In this document: positions 4,359 through 54,628 of the stretch, piece after piece
Layout of the letters: every line of letters begins with the position of its first letter
Numbering within the stretch: the stretch's first letter is position 1
Source: Escherichia coli
Lineage (GTDB): Bacteria; Pseudomonadota; Gammaproteobacteria; Enterobacterales; Enterobacteriaceae
Assembly (NCBI RefSeq): GCF_022846255.1
Contig: NZ_AP025682.1
Reading direction: 5' to 3' (one strand)
DNA: 64,000 bases
Notes under the pieces: model-generated
Seen by the model: only the letters and a program-made list of their open reading frames with translations
What the model was told of the DNA's origin: nothing
Databases searched by the model: none
Position numbers and translations under genes: made by a program

Positions 4359-4544
4359 AGTGGCTCATTCGCCGACTTATGTCAGCCCCTTCGGGACGTG
4401 CTACATAAAATTCGAATGACGCACAACAAGGTGCCTGCCGTCCAACTTCTGATATCAGCGTAGCTATATCAACCATCGGGCGAAACGTCGAGTTAGGCAC
4501 CGCCTTATTCCATAACAAAGCCGGGTAATTCCCGGCTTTGTTGT
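4359..4544 (+). ncRNA. glmY: GlmY small RNA (regulator of glmS via GlmZ/RapZ)
   Basis: Begins AGTGGCTCATTC..., about 185 nt, ends in AAAGCCGGG-taat-CCCGGCTTT hairpin plus U-run at 4518-4544; sits immediately upstream of glrK as in K-12; no credible ORF. Confidence 0.8.
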
Positions 4545-33742: not shown

Positions 33743-33853
33743 TAAAAAGAATTCAGAATCAGGCCGGAGTGCCAAACACTCCGTAAACACGGTCGTACAT
33801 CCAGCCGGTAGCCTGGTTCCTTGCATTGAGTGATGTACGGAGTTTATAGAGCA

Positions 33854-35917: not shown

Positions 35918-36433
35918 ATGGATTACTTCACCCTCTTTGGCTTGCCTGCCCGTTATCAACTCGATACCCAGGCGCTGAGCCTGCGTTTTCAGGATCTACA
36001 ACGTCAGTATCATCCTGATAAATTCGCCAGCGGAAGCCAGGCGGAACAACTCGCCGCCGTACAGCAATCCGCGACCATTAACCAGGCCTGGCAAACGCTG
36101 CGTCATCCGTTAATGCGCGCGGAATATTTGCTTTCTTTGCACGGTTTTGATCTCGCCAGCGAGCAGCATACTGTGCGCGACACCGCGTTCCTGATGGAAC
36201 AGCTGGAACTGCGCGAAGAACTGGACGAGATCGAACAGGCGAAAGATGAAGCGCGGCTGGAAAGCTTTATCAAACGTGTGAAAAAGATGTTTGATACCCG
36301 CCATCAGTTGATGGTTGAACAGTTAGACAACGAGACGTGGGACGCGGCGGCGGATACCGTGCGTAAGCTGCGTTTTCTCGATAAACTGCGGAGCAGTGCC
36401 GAACAACTCGAAGAAAAACTGCTCGATTTTTAA
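35918..36433 (+). CDS. hscB: J-domain co-chaperone HscB
   Basis: 171 aa; J-domain HPD motif (QRQYHPDKF). Confidence 0.95.
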
Positions 36434-36449
36434 TTTCTGGAAGCTAAAC

Positions 36450-38300
36450 ATGGCCTTATTACAAATTAGTGAACCTGGTTTGAGTGCTGCGCCGCATCAG
36501 CGTCGCCTGGCGGCCGGTATTGACCTGGGCACAACCAACTCGCTGGTGGCAACAGTGCGCAGCGGTCAGGCCGAAACGTTAGCTGACCATGAAGGCCGTC
36601 ACCTGCTGCCATCTGTTGTTCACTATCAACAGCAAGGGCATTCGGTGGGTTATGACGCGCGTACTAATGCAGCGCTCGATACCGCCAACACAATTAGTTC
36701 TGTTAAACGCCTGATGGGGCGCTCGCTGGCTGATATCCAGCAACGCTATCCGCATCTGCCTTATCAATTCCAGGCCAGCGAAAACGGCCTTCCGATGATT
36801 GAAACGGCGGCGGGGCTGCTGAACCCGGTGCGCGTTTCTGCGGACATCCTCAAAGCACTGGCGGCGCGGGCAACTGAAGCCCTGGCAGGCGAGCTGGATG
36901 GTGTCGTTATCACCGTTCCGGCGTACTTTGACGATGCCCAGCGTCAGGGCACCAAAGACGCGGCGCGTCTGGCGGGCCTTCACGTCCTGCGCTTACTTAA
37001 CGAACCGACCGCTGCGGCTATCGCCTACGGGCTGGATTCCGGTCAGGAAGGCGTGATCGCTGTTTATGACCTCGGCGGCGGGACGTTTGATATTTCCATT
37101 CTGCGCTTAAGTCGCGGCGTGTTTGAAGTGCTGGCAACCGGCGGTGATTCCGCGCTCGGCGGCGATGATTTCGACCATTTGCTGGCGGATTATATTCGCG
37201 AGCAGGCGGGCATTCCTGATCGTAGCGATAACCGCGTTCAGCGTGAACTGCTGGATGCCGCCATTGCAGCCAAAATCGCGCTGAGTGATGCGGACTCCGT
37301 GACCGTTAACGTTGCGGGCTGGCAGGGCGAAATCAGCCGTGAACAATTCAATGAACTGATCGCGCCACTGGTAAAACGAACCTTACTGGCTTGTCGTCGC
37401 GCGCTGAAAGACGCGGGTGTAGAAGCTGATGAAGTGCTGGAAGTGGTGATGGTGGGCGGTTCTACTCGCGTGCCGCTGGTGCGTGAACGGGTAGGCGAAT
37501 TTTTCGGTCGTCCACCGCTGACTTCCATCGACCCGGATAAAGTCGTCGCTATTGGCGCGGCGATTCAGGCGGATATTCTGGTGGGTAACAAGCCAGACAG
37601 CGAAATGCTGCTGCTTGATGTGATCCCACTGTCGCTGGGCCTCGAAACGATGGGCGGCCTGGTGGAGAAAGTGATTCCGCGTAATACCACGATTCCGGTG
37701 GCTCGCGCCCAGGATTTCACCACCTTTAAAGATGGTCAGACGGCGATGTCTATCCATGTAATGCAGGGTGAGCGTGAACTGGTGCAGGACTGCCGCTCGC
37801 TGGCGCGTTTTGCGCTGCGTGGTATTCCGGCGCTACCGGCTGGCGGTGCGCATATTCGCGTGACGTTCCAGGTCGATGCCGACGGTCTTTTGAGCGTGAC
37901 GGCGATGGAGAAATCCACCGGCGTTGAGGCATCTATTCAGGTCAAACCGTCTTATGGTCTGACCGACAGCGAAATCGCCTCGATGATCAAAGACTCAATG
38001 AGCTATGCCGAGCAGGACGTAAAAGCCCGAATGCTGGCAGAACAAAAAGTAGAAGCGGCGCGTGTGCTGGAAAGTCTGCACGGTGCGCTGGCTGCTGATG
38101 CCGCGCTGTTAAGCGCCGCAGAACGTCAGGATATCGACGATGCTGCCGCTCACCTGAGTGAAGTGGCGCAGGGCGATGATGTTGACGCCATCGAACAAGC
38201 GATTAAAAACGTAGACAAACAAACCCAGGATTTCGCCGCTCGCCGCATGGACCAGTCGGTTCGCCGTGCGCTGAAAGGCCATTCCGTGGACGAGGTTTAA
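36450..38300 (+). CDS. hscA: Hsp70-type chaperone HscA
   Basis: 616 aa from ATG 36450 ([10 protein letters not shown]); DnaK-like ATPase motifs ([17 protein letters not shown]). Confidence 0.96.
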
Positions 38301-38301
38301 T

Positions 38302-38637
38302 ATGCCAAAGATTGTTATTTTGCCTCATCAGGATCTCTGCCCTGATGGCGCTGTTCTGGAAGCGAATAGTGGTGAAACCATTCTCGACGTTGCGCTGCGT
38401 AACGGTATCGAGATTGAACACGCCTGTGAAAAATCCTGTGCTTGCACCACCTGCCACTGCATCGTTCGCGAAGGTTTTGACTCGCTGCCGGAAAGCTCAG
38501 AGCAGGAAGACGACATGCTGGACAAAGCCTGGGGACTGGAGCCGGAAAGCCGTTTAAGCTGCCAGGCGCGCGTTACTGACGAAGATTTAGTGGTCGAAAT
38601 CCCGCGTTACACTATCAACCATGCGCGTGAGCATTAA
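38302..38637 (+). CDS. fdx: [2Fe-2S] ferredoxin (adrenodoxin-type)
   Basis: 111 aa; Cys ligands [12 protein letters not shown]...C. Confidence 0.95.
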
Positions 38638-38648
38638 CAGAGGTTACT

Positions 38649-38849
38649 ATGGGACTTAAGTGGACCGATAGCCGCGAAATTGGCGAAGCACTGTACGATG
38701 CGTATCCCGATCTTGATCCGAAAAGGGTTCGATTCACCGATATGCATCAGTGGATTTGCGATCTGGAAGATTTCGACGACGACCCGCAGGCATCCAACGA
38801 AAAAATCCTCGAAGCGATTTTGTTGGTCTGGCTGGACGAAGCCGAGTAA
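38649..38849 (+). CDS. iscX: Fe-S assembly protein IscX
   Basis: 66-aa acidic protein [24 protein letters not shown] at the end of the isc operon. Confidence 0.93.
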
Positions 38850-38907
38850 ATGAACGGGCTGCCTGGGGGTAGCCCGTTTTGCTGTTAAACGAATAAGGAT
38901 AACTAAA

Positions 38908-40191
38908 ATGACAGAAGCGATGAAAATTACCCTCTCTACCCAACCTGCCGATGCGCGCTGGGGAGAAAAAGCAACTTACAGCATTAATAATGATGGCATT
39001 ACCCTGCATTTGAACGGGGCAGACGATCTGGGGCTGATCCAGCGTGCGGCGCGCAAGATTGATGGTCTGGGCATCAAGCATGTTCAGCTAAGCGGAGAAG
39101 GCTGGGATGCGGATCGCTGCTGGGCATTCTGGCAAGGTTACAAAGCCCCGAAAGGCACGCGTAAAGTGGAGTGGCCGGATCTGGACGATGTCCAGCGCCA
39201 GGAACTGGATAACCGCCTGATGATCATCGACTGGGTGCGTGACACCATTAACGCACCGGCGGAAGAGCTGGGGCCATCGCAACTGGCACAGCGTGCTGTT
39301 GATCTGATCAGCAATGTCGCGGGCGATCGTGTGACTTACCGGATCACCAAAGGCGAAGATCTGCGTGATCAAGGTTATATGGGACTGCACACGGTCGGAC
39401 GCGGTTCAGAACGTTCTCCGGTATTGCTGGCGCTGGATTACAACCCAACTGGCGATAAAGAAGCGCCAGTGTACGCGTGCCTGGTTGGTAAAGGCATCAC
39501 TTTTGACTCCGGCGGCTACAGCATCAAACAGACCGCATTTATGGACTCGATGAAGTCGGACATGGGCGGCGCGGCAACGGTTACCGGGGCGCTGGCGTTT
39601 GCCATTACGCGCGGACTGAATAAGCGCGTGAAGCTGTTCCTCTGCTGTGCGGATAACCTGATCAGCGGCAACGCGTTCAAACTGGGCGATATTATTACCT
39701 ATCGCAACGGTAAAAAAGTCGAAGTGATGAACACCGATGCCGAAGGGCGTCTGGTGCTGGCCGATGGCCTGATTGATGCCAGTGCGCAGAAACCGGAACT
39801 GATCATTGATGCGGCGACCCTCACCGGGGCGGCGAAAACTGCGCTGGGTAATGATTATCACGCGTTGTTCAGTTTTGACGATGCGCTTGCCGGTCGTTTG
39901 CTGGCGAGTGCCTCACAAGAGAACGAACCGTTCTGGCGTCTGCCGCTTGCGGAATTCCACCGCAGCCAGCTGCCGTCTAACTTTGCCGAACTGAACAATA
40001 CCGGAAGCGCGGCGTATCCGGCAGGTGCAAGTACGGCTGCGGGCTTCCTGTCGCACTTTGTTGAGAACTATCAGCAAGGCTGGCTGCATATCGACTGCTC
40101 GGCGACTTACCGTAAAGCGCCGGTTGAACAGTGGTCTGCGGGTGCTACGGGACTTGGTGTGCGCACGATTGCTAATCTGTTAACGGCGTAA
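38908..40191 (+). CDS. pepB: aminopeptidase B (M17 family)
   Basis: 427 aa; M17 motif NTDAEGRL. Confidence 0.95.
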
Positions 40192-40199
40192 ACTAATAT

Positions 40200-40296
<97 letters not shown>

Positions 40297-40332
40297 ACTT
40301 GCTCCCCGAACGTTGAATGAATTGTGGTTCTT

Positions 40333-41109
40333 ATGTCCGAAACAAAAAACGAACTTGAAGACCTGCTGGAAAAAGCAGCAACCGAACCGGCTCACCGCCC
40401 GGCCTTTTTCCGTACTCTACTGGAATCCACCGTCTGGGTGCCTGGTACGGCGGCGCAGGGCGAGGCAGTAGTTGAAGATAGCGCGCTTGATTTACAGCAC
40501 TGGGAAAAAGAAGACGGCACCAGCGTCATTCCTTTTTTTACCTCGTTAGAAGCACTTCAACAGGCGGTTGAAGACGAACAGGCATTTGTCGTAATGCCCG
40601 TTCGCACATTGTTTGAGATGACCCTTGGCGAAACGCTCTTCCTTAATGCCAAACTGCCAACCGGTAAAGAGTTTATGCCGCGTGAAATCAGTTTGTTGAT
40701 TGGTGAAGAAGGGAATCCGCTGAGTAGCCAGGAAGTACTGGAAGGCGGTGAATCGCTGATATTATCGGAAGTCGCAGAGCTGCCAGCACAAATGATTGAT
40801 TCACTCACCACCTTATTTAAAACCATTAAGCCGGTGAAGCGTGCTTTTATTTGTTCAATTAAAGAGAACGAAGAGGCACAGCCTAATTTACTTATTGGCA
40901 TTGAAGCCGATGGTGATATCGAAGAAATTATTCAGGTGGCGGGAAGTGTAGCGACCGATACATTACCTGGCGATGAGCCCATCGATATTTGTCAGGTGAA
41001 AAAAGGGGAAAAAGGAATTAGCCACTTTATTACCGAACATATTGTGCCATTCTATGAACGTCGCTGGGGTGGTTTTTTGCGTGACTTTAAACAGAGTCGG
41101 ATAATCTAA
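40333..41109 (+). CDS. sseB: SseB (enhanced serine sensitivity protein B)
   Basis: 258 aa from ATG 40333 (MSETKNELEDLLEKAATEPAHRPAFF). Confidence 0.9.
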   Translation: MSETKNELEDLLEKAATEPAHRPAFFRTLLESTVWVPGTAAQGEAVVEDSALDLQHWEKEDGTSVIPFFTSLEALQQAVEDEQAFVVMPVRTLFEMTLGETLFLNAKLPTGKEFMPREISLLIGEEGNPLSSQEVLEGGESLILSEVAELPAQMIDSLTTLFKTIKPVKRAFICSIKENEEAQPNLLIGIEADGDIEEIIQVAGSVATDTLPGDEPIDICQVKKGEKGISHFITEHIVPFYERRWGGFLRDFKQSRII

Positions 41110-41420
41110 AATATGCCGCCCCAAAGGGCGGCATTCGGGCTTACTTGCTGCTCTGAAGTTTGTTAACCACCAGTAAATTGTCGCCGGAGAGACTCCGGTT
41201 ATTATTTACCTCGGTTAACAGCGCACCAGAAACAATAAGTACGATACAGAAGCACCGTATCTTCATTGTGCGGTCCATGCGAAGACCGCATCACGACAGC
41301 ACCACTGGCGATATTGCCGCGATAGCAAGCGCTGTGAAACACCTGCATTTACGGCCATGGAACATCCTTTCCTTAAGCCAGCGCCCGTTTGCGAGACGGC
41401 GGAAAGGGCCGGTGTCGATA
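41105..41420 (-). ncRNA. ryfA: RyfA-like transcript (about 310 nt; probably a small-protein mRNA, TimP/RyfA family)
   Basis: Minus-strand unit bounded by a 9-bp GC-rich hairpin (41113-41134) plus U-run at its 3' end and promoter-like elements near 41420-41461; position between sseB and sseA and size match enterobacterial ryfA; the 5' end is approximate. Confidence 0.55.
41141..41278 (-). CDS. candidate small hydrophobic peptide (TimP-like putative type I toxin), 45 aa, or 41 aa from the second ATG
   Basis: Minus-strand ORF MDRTMKIRCFCIVLIVSGALLTEVNNNRSLSGDNLLVVNKLQSSK inside the RyfA-like transcript; hydrophobic N-terminal segment then polar tail; weak Shine-Dalgarno; below the 60-aa cutoff of the supplied ORF track. 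Confidence 0.35.
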   Translation of the reverse strand: MDRTMKIRCFCIVLIVSGALLTEVNNNRSLSGDNLLVVNKLQSSK

Positions 41421-41489
41421 ATACGCTAAATAAACAATGATTGCTCTCTTTCGCTTGACAAAAAGAGAGTTACTGGCGAGTATTGCTTT

Positions 41490-41592
41490 GCTGTGAAGCA
41501 CCTGCGTTGCTCATGCAACACAAGCCAATCTGCTGGAAAGGCCGCGAACCAAACCAGCAACAAATAACCGCCTGATTTTGGCGGTTTTTTGT
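41490..41592 (+). ncRNA. candidate small RNA unit 1 (about 100 nt), divergent from the RyfA-like transcript; putative antitoxin (TimR/RyfB-like)
   Basis: TTGACA (41455-41460) - 17 bp - GAGTAT (41478-41483) promoter, then about 100 nt ending in AACCGCC-tgatttt-GGCGGTT hairpin plus TTTTTTGTTG; the 5' end (41490-41505, GCTGTGAAGCACCTGC) is complementary to the RyfA-like RNA; no ORF. Confidence 0.45.
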
Positions 41593-41767
41593 TGTTTAAA
41601 GAAAGTGAAATTACACGTTTAAGTAATATCTTTTACCAGTTAGTATTTTAATATTAAGCGGGATTTGTTTATATTTGTCTGAATTCGGACTGATAAGCCA
41701 AATGAATTCAAAATCTATCCTTTTTTATCTACTTGACATCGTTGATGCATAAAGCGAGTATTGAGTA

Positions 41768-41856
41768 GACGAGATACACTTGCAGTAATACAACCTGCTG
41801 GAAAGGCCGCGAACCAGACCAGCAATAAAAAACCGCCAAATTCGGCGGTTTTTTAT
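41768..41856 (+). ncRNA. candidate small RNA unit 2 (paralog of unit 1, about 90 nt); its terminator also serves convergent sseA
   Basis: Second TTGACA (41733-41738) - 17 bp - GAGTAT (41756-41761) promoter; 3' 60 nt (CTGCTGGAAAGGCCGCGAACCAGACCAGCAA...) near-identical to unit 1; ends in AAAACCGCC-aaattc-GGCGGTTTTTT bidirectional terminator directly after the sseA stop. Confidence 0.4.
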
Positions 41857-41870
41857 TGCCTGTAAAAAGC

Positions 41871-42716
41871 TTATTTTACGGGCTCAACCGGTAAATCTGC
41901 TCGTGCGCCCCATTCACTCCATGCGCCGTCGTACAGTTTCACGTTTGGCACATCAAGTGTCGCGAGTGCCAACAAAACCACGGCTGCCGTTACACCAGAG
42001 CCGCAGCTGACGATAATAGGTTTGTCATAACTTACGCCGCGACCAAAAAATATCGCATCCAGTTCATCGGTCGTTTTTAGTTCACCTTCGCGCACCAGTT
42101 CCGTCCACGGAACATTTAGTGCACCGGGAATATGTCCGCGACGTAAACCTGGGCGAGGTTCATCAACTTCTGCGTTAAAACGTGCAGCCGGGCGGGCATC
42201 GATAATTTGCGCCGTATTTTCATGGCTTGCCAATAACACATCGGTTACTTTCACCACGGCTTCAGGATTAAACGCGGCGTTAAACTCTCCTTCCGGCAGC
42301 TCTACTGCGCCTTCTTCTAATAGCAGATCATCACGCTGCCAGCCTGCAAGTCCACCACCCAGAATCGACACTTTCTCTACACCAAAGGTGCGCAGCATCC
42401 ACCATGCTCGTGGGGCTGAGAAAAGATTACCTTCGTCATAGACAATCAGGTGCTTATCCTGGTTAACGCCTAATTCACGCATCGCCACGGCGAACGTTTC
42501 CGGGCGCGGCAGCATGTGCGGAAGCGGGGAAGTGTGATCAGAAAGCGCTTCTATATCAAAAAACACTGCGCCGGGAATATGTCCATTCAGATACTCCTGA
42601 GCAACGTTACGATCTTCCTGTCCAGGCGACGCCATGCGGGCATCGATAATCTGAATTTCCGGGTCATCAATATGTTCGGCGAGCCAGTCGGCTCCTACAA
42701 ACCATGTCGTGGACAT
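41871..42716 (-). CDS. sseA: 3-mercaptopyruvate sulfurtransferase (tandem rhodanese domains)
   Basis: 281 aa from internal ATG 42716 (MSTTWFVGADWL); active-site CGSGVTA. Confidence 0.93.
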   Translation of the reverse strand: MSTTWFVGADWLAEHIDDPEIQIIDARMASPGQEDRNVAQEYLNGHIPGAVFFDIEALSDHTSPLPHMLPRPETFAVAMRELGVNQDKHLIVYDEGNLFSAPRAWWMLRTFGVEKVSILGGGLAGWQRDDLLLEEGAVELPEGEFNAAFNPEAVVKVTDVLLASHENTAQIIDARPAARFNAEVDEPRPGLRRGHIPGALNVPWTELVREGELKTTDELDAIFFGRGVSYDKPIIVSCGSGVTAAVVLLALATLDVPNVKLYDGAWSEWGARADLPVEPVK

Positions 42717-53399: not shown

Positions 53400-54518
53400 A
53401 TGCATAACCAGGCTCCAATTCAACGTAGAAAATCAACACGTATTTACGTTGGGAATGTGCCGATTGGCGATGGTGCTCCCATCGCCGTACAGTCCATGAC
53501 CAATACGCGTACGACAGACGTCGAAGCAACGGTCAATCAAATCAAGGCGCTGGAACGTGTTGGCGCTGATATCGTCCGTGTCTCCGTACCGACGATGGAC
53601 GCGGCAGAAGCGTTCAAACTCATCAAACAGCAGGTTAACGTGCCGCTGGTGGCTGACATCCACTTCGACTATCGCATTGCGCTGAAAGTAGCGGAATACG
53701 GCGTCGATTGTCTGCGTATTAACCCTGGCAATATCGGTAATGAAGAGCGTATTCGCATGGTGGTTGACTGTGCGCGCGATAAAAACATTCCGATCCGTAT
53801 TGGCGTTAATGCCGGATCGTTGGAAAAAGATCTGCAAGAAAAGTATGGCGAACCGACGCCGCAGGCGTTGCTGGAATCTGCCATGCGTCATGTTGATCAT
53901 CTCGATCGCCTGAACTTCGATCAGTTCAAAGTCAGCGTGAAAGCGTCTGACGTCTTCCTCGCTGTTGAGTCTTATCGTTTGCTGGCAAAACAAATCGATC
54001 AGCCGCTGCATCTGGGGATCACCGAAGCCGGTGGTGCGCGTAGCGGGGCAGTAAAATCCGCTATTGGTTTAGGTCTGCTGCTGTCTGAAGGCATCGGCGA
54101 CACGCTGCGCGTATCGCTGGCGGCCGATCCGGTCGAAGAGATCAAAGTCGGTTTCGATATTTTGAAATCGCTGCGTATCCGTTCGCGCGGGATCAACTTC
54201 ATCGCCTGCCCGACCTGTTCGCGTCAGGAATTTGATGTTATCGGTACGGTTAACGCGCTGGAGCAACGCCTGGAAGATATCATCACTCCGATGGACGTTT
54301 CGATTATCGGCTGCGTGGTGAATGGCCCTGGTGAGGCGCTGGTTTCTACACTCGGCGTCACTGGCGGCAACAAGAAAAGCGGCCTCTATGAAGATGGCGT
54401 GCGCAAAGACCGTCTGGACAACAACGATATGATCGATCAGCTGGAAGCGCGCATTCGTGCGAAAGCCAGTCAGCTGGACGAAGCGCGTCGAATTGACGTT
54501 CAGCAGGTTGAAAAATAA
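53400..54518 (+). CDS. ispG: 4-hydroxy-3-methylbut-2-enyl diphosphate synthase (IspG/GcpE)
   Basis: 372 aa; [4Fe-4S] ligands in [12 protein letters not shown] and GCVVNGPGE. Confidence 0.96.
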
Positions 54519-54628
54519 TAACGTGATGGGAAGCGCCTCGCTTCCCGTGTATGATTGAACCCGCATGGCTCCCGAAACATTGAGGGAAGCGTTGAGGGTT
54601 CATTTTTATATTCAGAAAGAGAATAAAC

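What the first reader, a model, noticed from the sequence alone, without database searches (positions are those of the whole stretch)
41105..41592. Candidate type I toxin-antitoxin-like module: RyfA/TimP-like small-protein RNA with a divergent complementary sRNA
The sseB-sseA intergenic region carries a ~310-nt minus-strand transcript unit (hairpin terminator at 41113-41134) containing a 41-45 aa ORF with a hydrophobic N-terminal segment (MKIRCFCIVLIVSGALL...). Divergently, a plus-strand unit with a TTGACA-N17-GAGTAT promoter starts at ~41490. Its first 16 nt (GCTGTGAAGCACCTGC) are a 15/16 direct repeat of plus-strand 41331-41346 (GCTGTGAAACACCTGC), so the two RNAs can form a 16-20 bp duplex (the mismatches are G-U compatible) about 55-70 nt upstream of the peptide start codon. 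The two units also share back-to-back -35 elements (TTGTCAA/TTGACAA palindrome at 41455-41461). This mirrors tisB/IstR, zor/orz and Salmonella timP/TimR.
Basis: partly seen in the sequence, partly recalled or inferred. Interest (0 to 1): 0.8.

Follow-up and report, generated by a model that had tools for sequence, protein, structure and literature searches.

The report
Known timP/TimR toxin-antitoxin locus

Summary

- **RNA match:** The minus-strand unit at 41108-41412 is a full-length match to Rfam ryfA (RF00126, 311.7 bits against a threshold of 80).
- **Protein match:** Its 41-aa ORF (41141-41266) matches NCBIfam NF040796 "toxic_TimP" (83.8 bits, cut-off 45). RefSeq annotates the same gene as timP in E. 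coli genomes.
- **Antitoxin:** The divergent plus-strand sRNA (41490 to about 41592) is TimR. Its first 19 nt pair continuously (17 Watson-Crick, 2 G-U) with timP mRNA nt 64-82, in stem-loop SL2.
- **Conservation:** Eleven of 15 other Enterobacterales loci have a 16-21-nt pairing at the same position, and its sequence differs between genera.
- **Published control elements:** The SL1-SL3 pseudoknot, the SD-sequestering SL4 and the site 2-site 4 complementarity are all present.

Two details fail. The 45-aa start is not conserved. The "shared back-to-back -35" does not fit the timP -10 and start-site geometry.

The side observation worth keeping is a second TimR-like gene at 41768 to about 41854. 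It is non-cognate here. Its seed exactly matches a rare timP allele found in other strains (39 genomes, against 394 that carry the sRNA). E. coli has at least four timP/TimR specificity alleles.

The parts
41108..41412 (-). timP (formerly ryfA) mRNA, about 303-305 nt; the start is probably near 41410
   Evidence: Rfam RF00126 matches at 311.7 bits, full length. A start at 41410 puts the ATG at +145, as reported for Salmonella (PMC7667032).
41141..41266 (-). timP coding sequence: 41 aa plus stop, MKIRCFCIVLIVSGALLTEVNNNRSLSGDNLLVVNKLQSSK
   Evidence: The ORF is. NCBIfam NF040796 toxic_TimP scores 83.8 bits against a cut-off of 45. RefSeq timP CDSs are 126 nt at the same place. The ORF is conserved in all 16 loci. 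The exact sequence is named TimP.
41113..41134 (-). Intrinsic terminator of timP
   Evidence: Terminator scan: 9-bp stem with 7 GC pairs, followed by a T-rich tail.
41418..41423 (-). Probable timP -10 hexamer, TATTAT
   Evidence: Read from the sequence. GTATTAT is conserved in the three-strain alignment. It lies 7 nt upstream of the inferred start. This is an inference; the start site was not mapped here.
41331..41349 (-). TimR-binding site in the timP 5'UTR (mRNA nt 64-82; 5' arm and loop of SL2)
   Evidence: It forms 19 contiguous base pairs with TimR +1 to +19. The position matches the published SL2 site (PMC11228461). The site co-varies with TimR seeds across genera and across E. coli alleles.
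41377..41383 (-). Pseudoknot strand 1 (site 1) in upper SL1, CGCUGGC, mRNA nt 30-36
   Evidence: It pairs over 7 bp with nt 104-110. Three of the 7 pairs show compensatory changes on both sides across the 18-sequence alignment, and 94% of cells are paired. This matches PMC11228461.
41303..41309 (-). Pseudoknot strand 2 (site 3) in the SL3 loop, GCCAGUG, mRNA nt 104-110
41350..41355 (-). Site 2 (GGCCGU, nt 58-63), complementary to the 5' arm of SL4
   Evidence: Read from the sequence. Six pairs form with GCGGUC at nt 124-129. It corresponds to the site 2-site 4 interaction of PMC13000454. This is an inference by homology.
41270..41289 (-). SL4 hairpin (nt 124-143), which sequesters the Shine-Dalgarno-like GGA just upstream of the ATG
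   Evidence: The Rfam consensus structure shows it. All 7 pairs are intact, but their invariance is partly forced by my search pattern.
41455..41483 (+). TimR promoter: TTGACA (41455-41460), 17-nt spacer, GAGTAT (41478-41483)
   Evidence: Read from the sequence. Both hexamers are invariant in three strains. The same architecture precedes the second TimR-like gene.
41490..41592 (+). TimR (RyfB-type) antitoxin sRNA, about 103 nt: seed at 41490-41508, conserved body hairpin, terminator at 41566-41586
   Evidence: The terminator is and the predicted fold. The seed is complementary to timP. The counterpart is described in PMC7667032 and PMC5333039.
41733..41854 (+). Second, non-cognate TimR-like sRNA gene (TimR-B): promoter TTGACA 41733-41738 and GAGTAT 41756-41761, RNA from 41768 to about 41854
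   Evidence: It aligns to the TimR gene with the same promoter, body and terminator but a different 5' seed. The longest contiguous pairing with the resident timP is only 9 bp. Its seed is identical to the timP site of E. coli LR-28.

Best explanation
The region is the chromosomal timP/TimR type I toxin-antitoxin locus of Escherichia.

**Shown here at sequence level**
- timP (41412 to 41108, minus strand) is an mRNA of about 305 nt. Its 146-nt structured 5'UTR (SL1-SL4) precedes a 41-aa hydrophobic protein.
- TimR (41490 to about 41592, plus strand) is transcribed divergently from its own promoter and does not overlap timP.
- The 5'-terminal 19 nt of TimR can pair with SL2 of the timP leader.

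**Inferred from Salmonella experiments on the orthologue**
- The full-length timP mRNA switches between an inactive fold and an active fold. In the inactive fold the SD is locked in SL4.
- In the active fold an SL1-SL3 pseudoknot forms, together with a site 2-site 4 contact that opens SL4.
- TimR binds the active fold, opens SL2, destabilises the pseudoknot and blocks initiation.
- When TimR is depleted, TimP is made and inserts into the inner membrane through its uncleaved signal-like N-terminus. At high levels it makes the membrane leaky.
For: - Rfam ryfA matches at full length, 311.7 bits.
- NCBIfam toxic_TimP scores 83.8 bits against a cut-off of 45.
- RefSeq annotates timP between sseB and sseA.
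- The exact protein is named TimP and was seen on about 1,000 contigs.
- TimR and timP pair over 19 bp. The 16-mer repeat is unique in the window, with 0 of 100 shuffles reaching two matches.
- The duplex energy of the 30-nt seed against the UTR is -40.8 kcal/mol. Shuffled seeds average -22.9 (sd 2.9), and none of 1,000 shuffles reaches it.
- Eleven of 15 other Enterobacterales loci have a 16-21-nt pairing at the same timP position. The partner lies 82-99 nt upstream on the other strand, and the sequences differ between genera.
- Four E. coli site alleles each have a matching TimR seed.
- The ORF is kept in all 16 loci.
- The pseudoknot shows compensatory changes at 3 of 7 pairs, and the whole structure is 95% paired against 33-50% when partners are slid.
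- Experimental basis: PMC7667032 (toxicity, start codon, membrane location, compensatory TimR/timP mutants, in vitro translation), PMC11228461 (pseudoknot), PMC13000454 (structural switch).
Against: - Nothing here measures expression, toxicity or repression in this strain.
- Transcript ends are inferred, not mapped.
- The duplex energy alone is not unique: 1 of 1,578 genomic 30-mers reaches -40.0 kcal/mol.
- In Shigella dysenteriae no protein was detected from ryfA1 (PMC5333039).
- In Salmonella, natively expressed TimP causes only mild envelope stress (PMC7667032).
- UPEC and APEC studies attribute stress and virulence phenotypes to RyfA acting as a regulatory RNA (PMC8205139, PMC13188913). 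The physiological role of the module therefore remains open.
Confidence: 0.93

Rival explanations
1. RyfA acts mainly as a non-coding regulatory sRNA that controls stress-response and virulence genes. The divergent sRNA (RyfB/TimR) regulates or sponges it. The small ORF is incidental or rarely translated.
For: - UPEC and APEC ryfA deletions change oxidative and osmotic resistance, fimbriae and virulence. The ryfA-timR double deletion restores wild-type behaviour (PMC8205139, PMC13188913).
- In S. dysenteriae, RyfA1 overproduction lowers ompC and no protein was detected (PMC5333039).
Against: - The ORF is kept with an in-frame start and stop in all 16 loci from six genera (Escherichia to Yersinia). 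Its hydrophobic N-terminus is conserved while the RNA sequence drifts.
- A curated protein model matches it.
- In Salmonella an ATG-to-AAG mutation abolishes both the protein and the toxicity without lowering the mRNA (PMC7667032).
- The two roles are not mutually exclusive; a dual-function RNA remains possible.
Confidence: 0.12
2. The 16-nt repeat and the promoter-like hexamers are chance features of a conserved intergenic region, and there is no RNA-RNA regulation.
For: The promoter scan did not call the TimR promoter. Promoter-like sites in the region are no more frequent than in shuffles.
Against: - The repeat is unique in 64 kb, with 0.04 matches expected by chance.
- The paired segments co-vary across genera and across four E. 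coli alleles while keeping their positions.
- Both sRNA genes have terminators.
- Published compensatory-mutation tests exist for the orthologue (PMC7667032).
Confidence: 0.01

Closest known systems
timP/TimR of Salmonella enterica serovar Typhimurium (Andresen et al. 2020, PMC7667032; Eleftheraki and Holmqvist 2024, PMC11228461; Eleftheraki et al. 2026, PMC13000454)
   Same: - Same RNA family (RF00126) and same protein family (NF040796).
- Divergent, non-overlapping sRNA whose 5' end pairs for about 18-19 nt with SL2 of the leader.
- The ATG lies at about +145.
- A 7-bp SL1-SL3 pseudoknot, SL4 over the SD, and the site 2-site 4 complementarity are all present.
   Different: - TimP here is 41 aa, against 38 aa in Salmonella, and the C-terminal half differs.
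- The seed and site sequences differ (specificity allele A).
- No STM2534-like gene lies between timP and sseA.
- A second, non-cognate TimR-like gene lies downstream.
ryfA1/ryfB1 and ryfA2/ryfB2 of Shigella dysenteriae (Fris et al. 2017, PMC5333039)
   Same: - Same locus and same RNAs.
- A roughly 100-nt divergent RyfB is complementary to a 'variable region' of RyfA.
- Two RyfB-type genes sit in tandem.
   Different: S. dysenteriae keeps two full ryfA genes. The window has one timP and two TimR-type genes, so the second sRNA has no partner toxin here.
E. coli K-12 ryfA (Wassarman et al. 2001, as cited in PMC7667032), now annotated timP in RefSeq
   Same: - Same position between sseB and sseA.
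- Same site allele A.
- The TimP sequence is near-identical.
   Different: In K-12-like genomes the cognate TimR-A is the distal copy. It is preceded by a roughly 45-nt remnant of a second timP 5' end, and the proximal copy is TimR-C. In the window the cognate copy is proximal and the distal copy is TimR-B.
tisB/istR-1, zorO/orzO and shoB/ohsC (other E. coli type I systems with divergently encoded antitoxins of limited complementarity)
   Same: The architecture is shared: a small hydrophobic membrane toxin, a structured leader, a separately transcribed sRNA pairing with about 18-20 nt far upstream of the start codon, and no gene overlap.
   Different: - No sequence homology: the NCBIfam search returned only toxic_TimP at E<=1.
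- Those systems are activated by nucleolytic processing of the mRNA. timP is reported to use a processing-free structural switch (PMC11228461).

Membership tests
timP/TimR type I toxin-antitoxin system | The toxin mRNA belongs to Rfam ryfA (RF00126), scoring above the gathering threshold | tested here: met
   311.7 bits against a threshold of 80; model positions 1-296 of 296; window 41108-41412 on the minus strand.
timP/TimR type I toxin-antitoxin system | The small ORF belongs to the TimP protein family (NCBIfam NF040796) | tested here: met
   83.8 bits against a curated cut-off of 45, E 6.7e-24, residues 1-40 of 41. The exact sequence is named TimP in NCBI.
timP/TimR type I toxin-antitoxin system | A divergent, non-overlapping sRNA with its own promoter and terminator, whose 5' end is complementary (about 18 nt) to SL2 of the timP 5'UTR | tested here: met
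   19 contiguous base pairs between TimR +1 to +19 and timP nt 64-82. The terminator lies at 41566-41586. The promoter hexamers are conserved.
timP/TimR type I toxin-antitoxin system | The toxin site and antitoxin seed co-vary between lineages | tested here: met
   Eleven of 15 other loci have 16-21-nt runs at the same position with different sequences. Four E. coli alleles each have a matching seed.
timP/TimR type I toxin-antitoxin system | A 7-bp pseudoknot between upper SL1 and SL3 | tested here: met
   CGCUGGC (nt 30-36) pairs with GCCAGUG (nt 104-110). Three of 7 pairs change on both sides and 94% of cells are paired in 18 sequences.
timP/TimR type I toxin-antitoxin system | The SD is sequestered in stable SL4, with a site 2 sequence complementary to the 5' arm of SL4 | tested here: met
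   SL4 at nt 124-143 is fully paired. GGCCGU (nt 58-63) can pair with GCGGUC (nt 124-129). This is shown at sequence level only.
timP/TimR type I toxin-antitoxin system | TimP is toxic on overexpression and locates to the inner membrane, and TimR blocks its translation | not testable with these tools
   Known only from Salmonella experiments (PMC7667032). The sequence here shows the hydrophobic N-terminal 17-20 residues.
timP/TimR type I toxin-antitoxin system | Genomic position between sseB and sseA, as in E. coli | tested here: met
   sseB is at 40324-41109 (+) and sseA at 41871 onward (-). RefSeq neighbours are the same.
cis-antisense type I systems (hok/sok, ldr/rdl type) | The antitoxin is transcribed from the strand opposite the toxin gene and overlaps it | tested here: not met
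   TimR starts 78 nt beyond the timP start and runs away from it, so there is no overlap.
tisB/istR-1, zor/orz, shoB/ohsC | Toxin homologous to TisB, ZorO or ShoB | tested here: not met
   The NCBIfam scan at E<=1 returned only toxic_TimP. The resemblance is architectural only.

The most novel reading that the evidence does not exclude
The most novel reading not excluded is that timPR in E. coli is a multi-allelic specificity system with widespread orphan antitoxins.

- At least four site/seed alleles partition the species. Their timP-site counts are A 1,969, B 39, C 2,898 and D 383 of 5,426 genomes.
- Many genomes, including this window, carry a second TimR-type gene whose seed matches a timP allele present only in other strains. 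TimR-B occurs in 394 genomes against 39 for timP-B.
- Such orphans could be retained for a function. They might neutralise a timP allele arriving by recombination (an anti-addiction or immunity role), or they might regulate other targets.
- The direct repeat that defines the module also recurrently deletes both promoters. Fused loci occur in C. amalonaticus, Y. aleksiciae, Y. similis and one E. coli strain.

The papers I read mention only the RyfA1/A2 'variable region' and RyfB1/B2.
Probability: 0.2. Interest if true: 0.4.

Novelty: already known. Interest (0 to 1): 0.1.

Why it matters
For the finding itself there is little consequence. It re-identifies a named, annotated and mechanistically dissected type I toxin-antitoxin locus. 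The useful outcome is a correct label and precise coordinates for its functional elements in this window.

The side observations could matter modestly for understanding how RNA antitoxin specificity diversifies within a species, and how such modules decay. These are the four co-varying specificity alleles, the orphan TimR-B that is ten times commoner than its toxin allele, and the repeat-mediated promoter deletions.

Tried and rejected
1. **Full-length duplex folding.** RNAduplex on the two whole RNAs gave a sprawling 'duplex' with z = -0.8 against shuffles. This was uninformative, so I replaced it with a seed-restricted duplex and contiguous-run counts.
2. **Collection scan.** The pattern GCGGTCNNNGCANNGACCGCAC is hairpin-like and picked up about 105 chance hits in GC-rich genomes. 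Only 15 Enterobacterales loci were usable, and SL4 invariance in my alignment is therefore by construction.
3. **Rfam at a permissive E-value.** No Rfam family for TimR turned up, only weak terminator-driven hits such as rimP leader and RNAI.
4. **Is TimR a diverged duplicate of the antisense of the timP leader?** The local alignment always finds the same CGGCC(C)TTTCC motif, but z is only 0.1-2.6. I do not claim it.
5. **Counting repeat-fusion deletions in E. coli.** A junction query failed because the tool joins the two normal pieces into one place.
6. **Shared -35 palindrome.** Rejected on spacing, as set out in the observation check.
7. **Target for the orphan TimR-B seed.** No match elsewhere in the window at up to 3 mismatches.

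Full report
**What is there**

The region lies between sseB (40324-41109, plus strand) and sseA (from 41871, minus strand). An Rfam scan of the whole window gives a full-length match to ryfA (RF00126) at 41108-41412 on the minus strand. It scores 311.7 bits against a gathering score of 80.

A megablast of 41000-41900 against 5,426 complete E. coli genomes hits 5,425 of them. RefSeq annotates "timP: small toxic inner membrane protein TimP" under the match. The flanking genes are 98.2-98.3% identical to the best E. coli genomes. The exact 41-aa protein is named TimP [Escherichia coli] and was seen on about 1,000 contigs. The window therefore comes from E. coli or a very close relative.

**Check of the observation**

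- The terminator at 41113-41134 (minus strand) is found.
- The ORF 41141-41278 gives 45 aa, or 41 aa from the ATG at 41266.
- The two 16-mers (41331-41346 and 41490-41505) match 15/16. They are the only matches in the window at up to 2 mismatches, against 0.04 expected by chance.
- Allowing G-U, TimR +1 to +19 (41490-41508) pairs without interruption with timP mRNA nt 64-82 (41331-41349). That is 17 Watson-Crick and 2 G-U pairs.
- A seed-restricted duplex gives -40.8 kcal/mol, against -22.9 ± 2.9 for shuffled seeds (0 of 1,000 reach it). One of 1,578 genomic 30-mers comes close, so the energy alone is not decisive.
- The TimR promoter, TTGACA-N17-GAGTAT, is in the sequence. The scan missed it because GAGTAT matches only 3 of 6. 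Both hexamers are invariant in a three-strain alignment.

Two details fail.
- **The "shared back-to-back -35".** On the minus strand, TTGTCA (41461-41456) lies 32 nt upstream of the only good timP -10 (TATTAT, 41423-41418). That -10 is correctly placed for a start at about 41410. This is the Rfam start, and it puts the ATG at +145 as in Salmonella (PMC7667032).
- **The 45-aa start.** It lies inside the SL4 hairpin and is absent in Rahnella, Erwinia and Y. similis. The conserved and annotated protein has 41 aa.

**Identity and conservation**

The 41-aa ORF matches NCBIfam NF040796 toxic_TimP at 83.8 bits against a cut-off of 45. No other family appears at E<=1.

I fetched 15 Enterobacterales loci from a scan of species-representative genomes, and all 15 carry ryfA above the Rfam threshold. 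Together with the window that makes 16 loci. All 16 keep an ORF of 38-42 aa beginning MK(I)R(C/Y)..CI.

In 11 of the 15 fetched loci, as in the window, a 16-21-nt complementary run joins timP nt ~64-87 to a site 82-99 nt upstream on the opposite strand. The paired sequence differs between genera, which is the signature of a maintained RNA-RNA interaction.

On an 18-sequence alignment the Rfam helices plus the published pseudoknot are 95% paired, against 33-50% when partners are slid. The pseudoknot pairs nt 30-36 (CGCUGGC) with nt 104-110 (GCCAGUG). It has compensatory changes at 3 of its 7 pairs, more than any other helix. SL4 invariance is partly forced by my search pattern.

**Mechanism**

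*Shown here at sequence level:*
- a structured leader with SL1 to SL4;
- the TimR site in SL2;
- the pseudoknot;
- SL4 covering the SD-like GGA;
- site 2 (GGCCGU, nt 58-63) complementary to the 5' arm of SL4;
- a separate, divergent sRNA of about 103 nt with a free 5' seed and a terminator.

*Inferred from experiments on the Salmonella orthologue:*
- TimP overexpression kills and permeabilises cells. An ATG-to-AAG mutation abolishes both the protein and the toxicity.
- TimP fractionates with the inner membrane.
- Deleting timR unmasks TimP synthesis. Compensatory seed/site mutants and in vitro translation show direct repression (PMC7667032).
- The unprocessed mRNA alternates between folds, and translation needs the SL1-SL3 pseudoknot.
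- TimR binds the active fold and disrupts the pseudoknot (PMC11228461).
- A site 2-site 4 contact frees the SD (PMC13000454).

**Rival reading**

The main rival is that RyfA acts as a riboregulator of stress and virulence, with TimR or RyfB as its regulator. It rests on UPEC, APEC and Shigella genetics (PMC8205139, PMC13188913, PMC5333039). It is not excluded as a second function. It cannot explain the conserved ORF or the curated protein family. A chance origin is excluded by the co-variation.

**Comparison and novelty**

This is a member of the timP/TimR family on every testable criterion. It works like tisB/istR-1, zor/orz and shoB/ohsC in architecture but is not homologous to them. It is not a cis-antisense system, because the two genes do not overlap. 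The finding is already known, so interest is low.

**Seen along the way**

*A second, non-cognate TimR gene.* A TimR-like gene lies at 41768 to about 41854. It has the same promoter architecture (TTGACA 41733-41738, GAGTAT 41756-41761), body and terminator, but a different seed, GACGAGAUACACUUGCA. Its longest contiguous pairing with the resident timP is 9 bp. It has no other match in the window. Its seed is identical to the timP site of E. coli LR-28.

*Four specificity alleles in E. coli.* Sampling 14 Escherichia loci shows four site/seed alleles, A to D. Most have one clearly cognate TimR (16-20 bp), proximal or distal, and zero or one non-cognate copy. In L018 and L058 the best contiguous run is only 10-12 bp, and L131 has no intact TimR promoter.

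Junction queries give the counts below. They are lower bounds, because megablast needs a 28-nt exact word.

| Element | Genomes (of 5,426) |
|---|---|
| timP site allele A | 1,969 |
| timP site allele B | 39 |
| timP site allele C | 2,898 |
| timP site allele D | 383 |
| TimR-A seed | 2,088 |
| TimR-B seed | 394 |

The window's second sRNA is therefore a common orphan antitoxin. This extends the RyfA1/A2 and RyfB1/B2 picture of PMC5333039. I found no description of it in the papers I read.

*Fused loci.* In C. amalonaticus, Y. aleksiciae, Y. similis and E. coli 06-00048, the timP SL2 site is fused directly to the TimR body. This removes timP nt 1-63 and both promoters, as expected from a deletion between the two direct repeats.

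Noticed in passing
window 41733-41854 (+): A second TimR-like sRNA gene (TimR-B) has the same promoter, body and terminator as TimR but a different 5' seed, GACGAGATACACTTGCA. It is non-cognate to the resident timP (9 bp at most). It is identical to the timP site allele of E. coli LR-28. TimR-B occurs in 394 of 5,426 E. coli genomes, against 39 with the matching timP-B allele, so it is mostly an orphan antitoxin.
   Followed up: partly
window 41331-41349; loci L001, L002, L124-L130, L018, L058, L068: E. coli and close relatives carry at least four co-varying timP-site/TimR-seed specificity alleles. Site-allele counts are A 1,969, B 39, C 2,898 and D 383 genomes. The cognate TimR can be the proximal or the distal copy. 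K-12-like genomes keep a roughly 45-nt remnant of a second timP 5' end in front of the distal copy.
   Followed up: partly
L131 1520-1600; L080 8066-8125; L071 4554-4620; L116 5340-5409: In E. coli 06-00048, Citrobacter amalonaticus, Yersinia similis and Y. aleksiciae, the timP SL2 site is fused directly to the TimR body. timP nt 1-63 and both promoters are missing, as expected from a deletion between the two direct repeats. The TimP ORFs are still intact. In 06-00048 an IS3-family element also interrupts the TimR terminator.
   Followed up: partly
window 41548-41724 (-): Rfam IS128 (RF00125, 164.8 bits) lies between the two TimR-type genes, on the timP strand. It overlaps the TimR terminator in antisense. 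A partial second hit (34 bits) lies at 41813-41900. In Y. similis the analogous position upstream of timP holds Rfam Ysr224 (L071 4361-4467).
   Followed up: no
window 41536-41545 (+) and 41401-41411 (-): The loop of TimR's second hairpin (GGAAAGGCCG) is complementary to timP mRNA nt 2-12 (CGGCCCUUUCC) in every genus examined. Per-species alignment scores are not significant (z 0.1-2.6). It could be a second contact, shared ancestry or chance.
   Followed up: partly
window 4359-4506 (+), 33743-33852 (+), 54518-54609 (+): Other Rfam matches above threshold in the window are GlmY (143.6 bits), the iscRS stability element (135.1 bits) and SroE (116.6 bits). These are ordinary E. coli features.
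   Followed up: no
window 36000-41100: The flanking housekeeping genes (hscA to sseB) are at most 98.3% identical to any of 5,426 complete E. coli genomes. The source may be a Shigella or an under-sampled Escherichia lineage.
   Followed up: no
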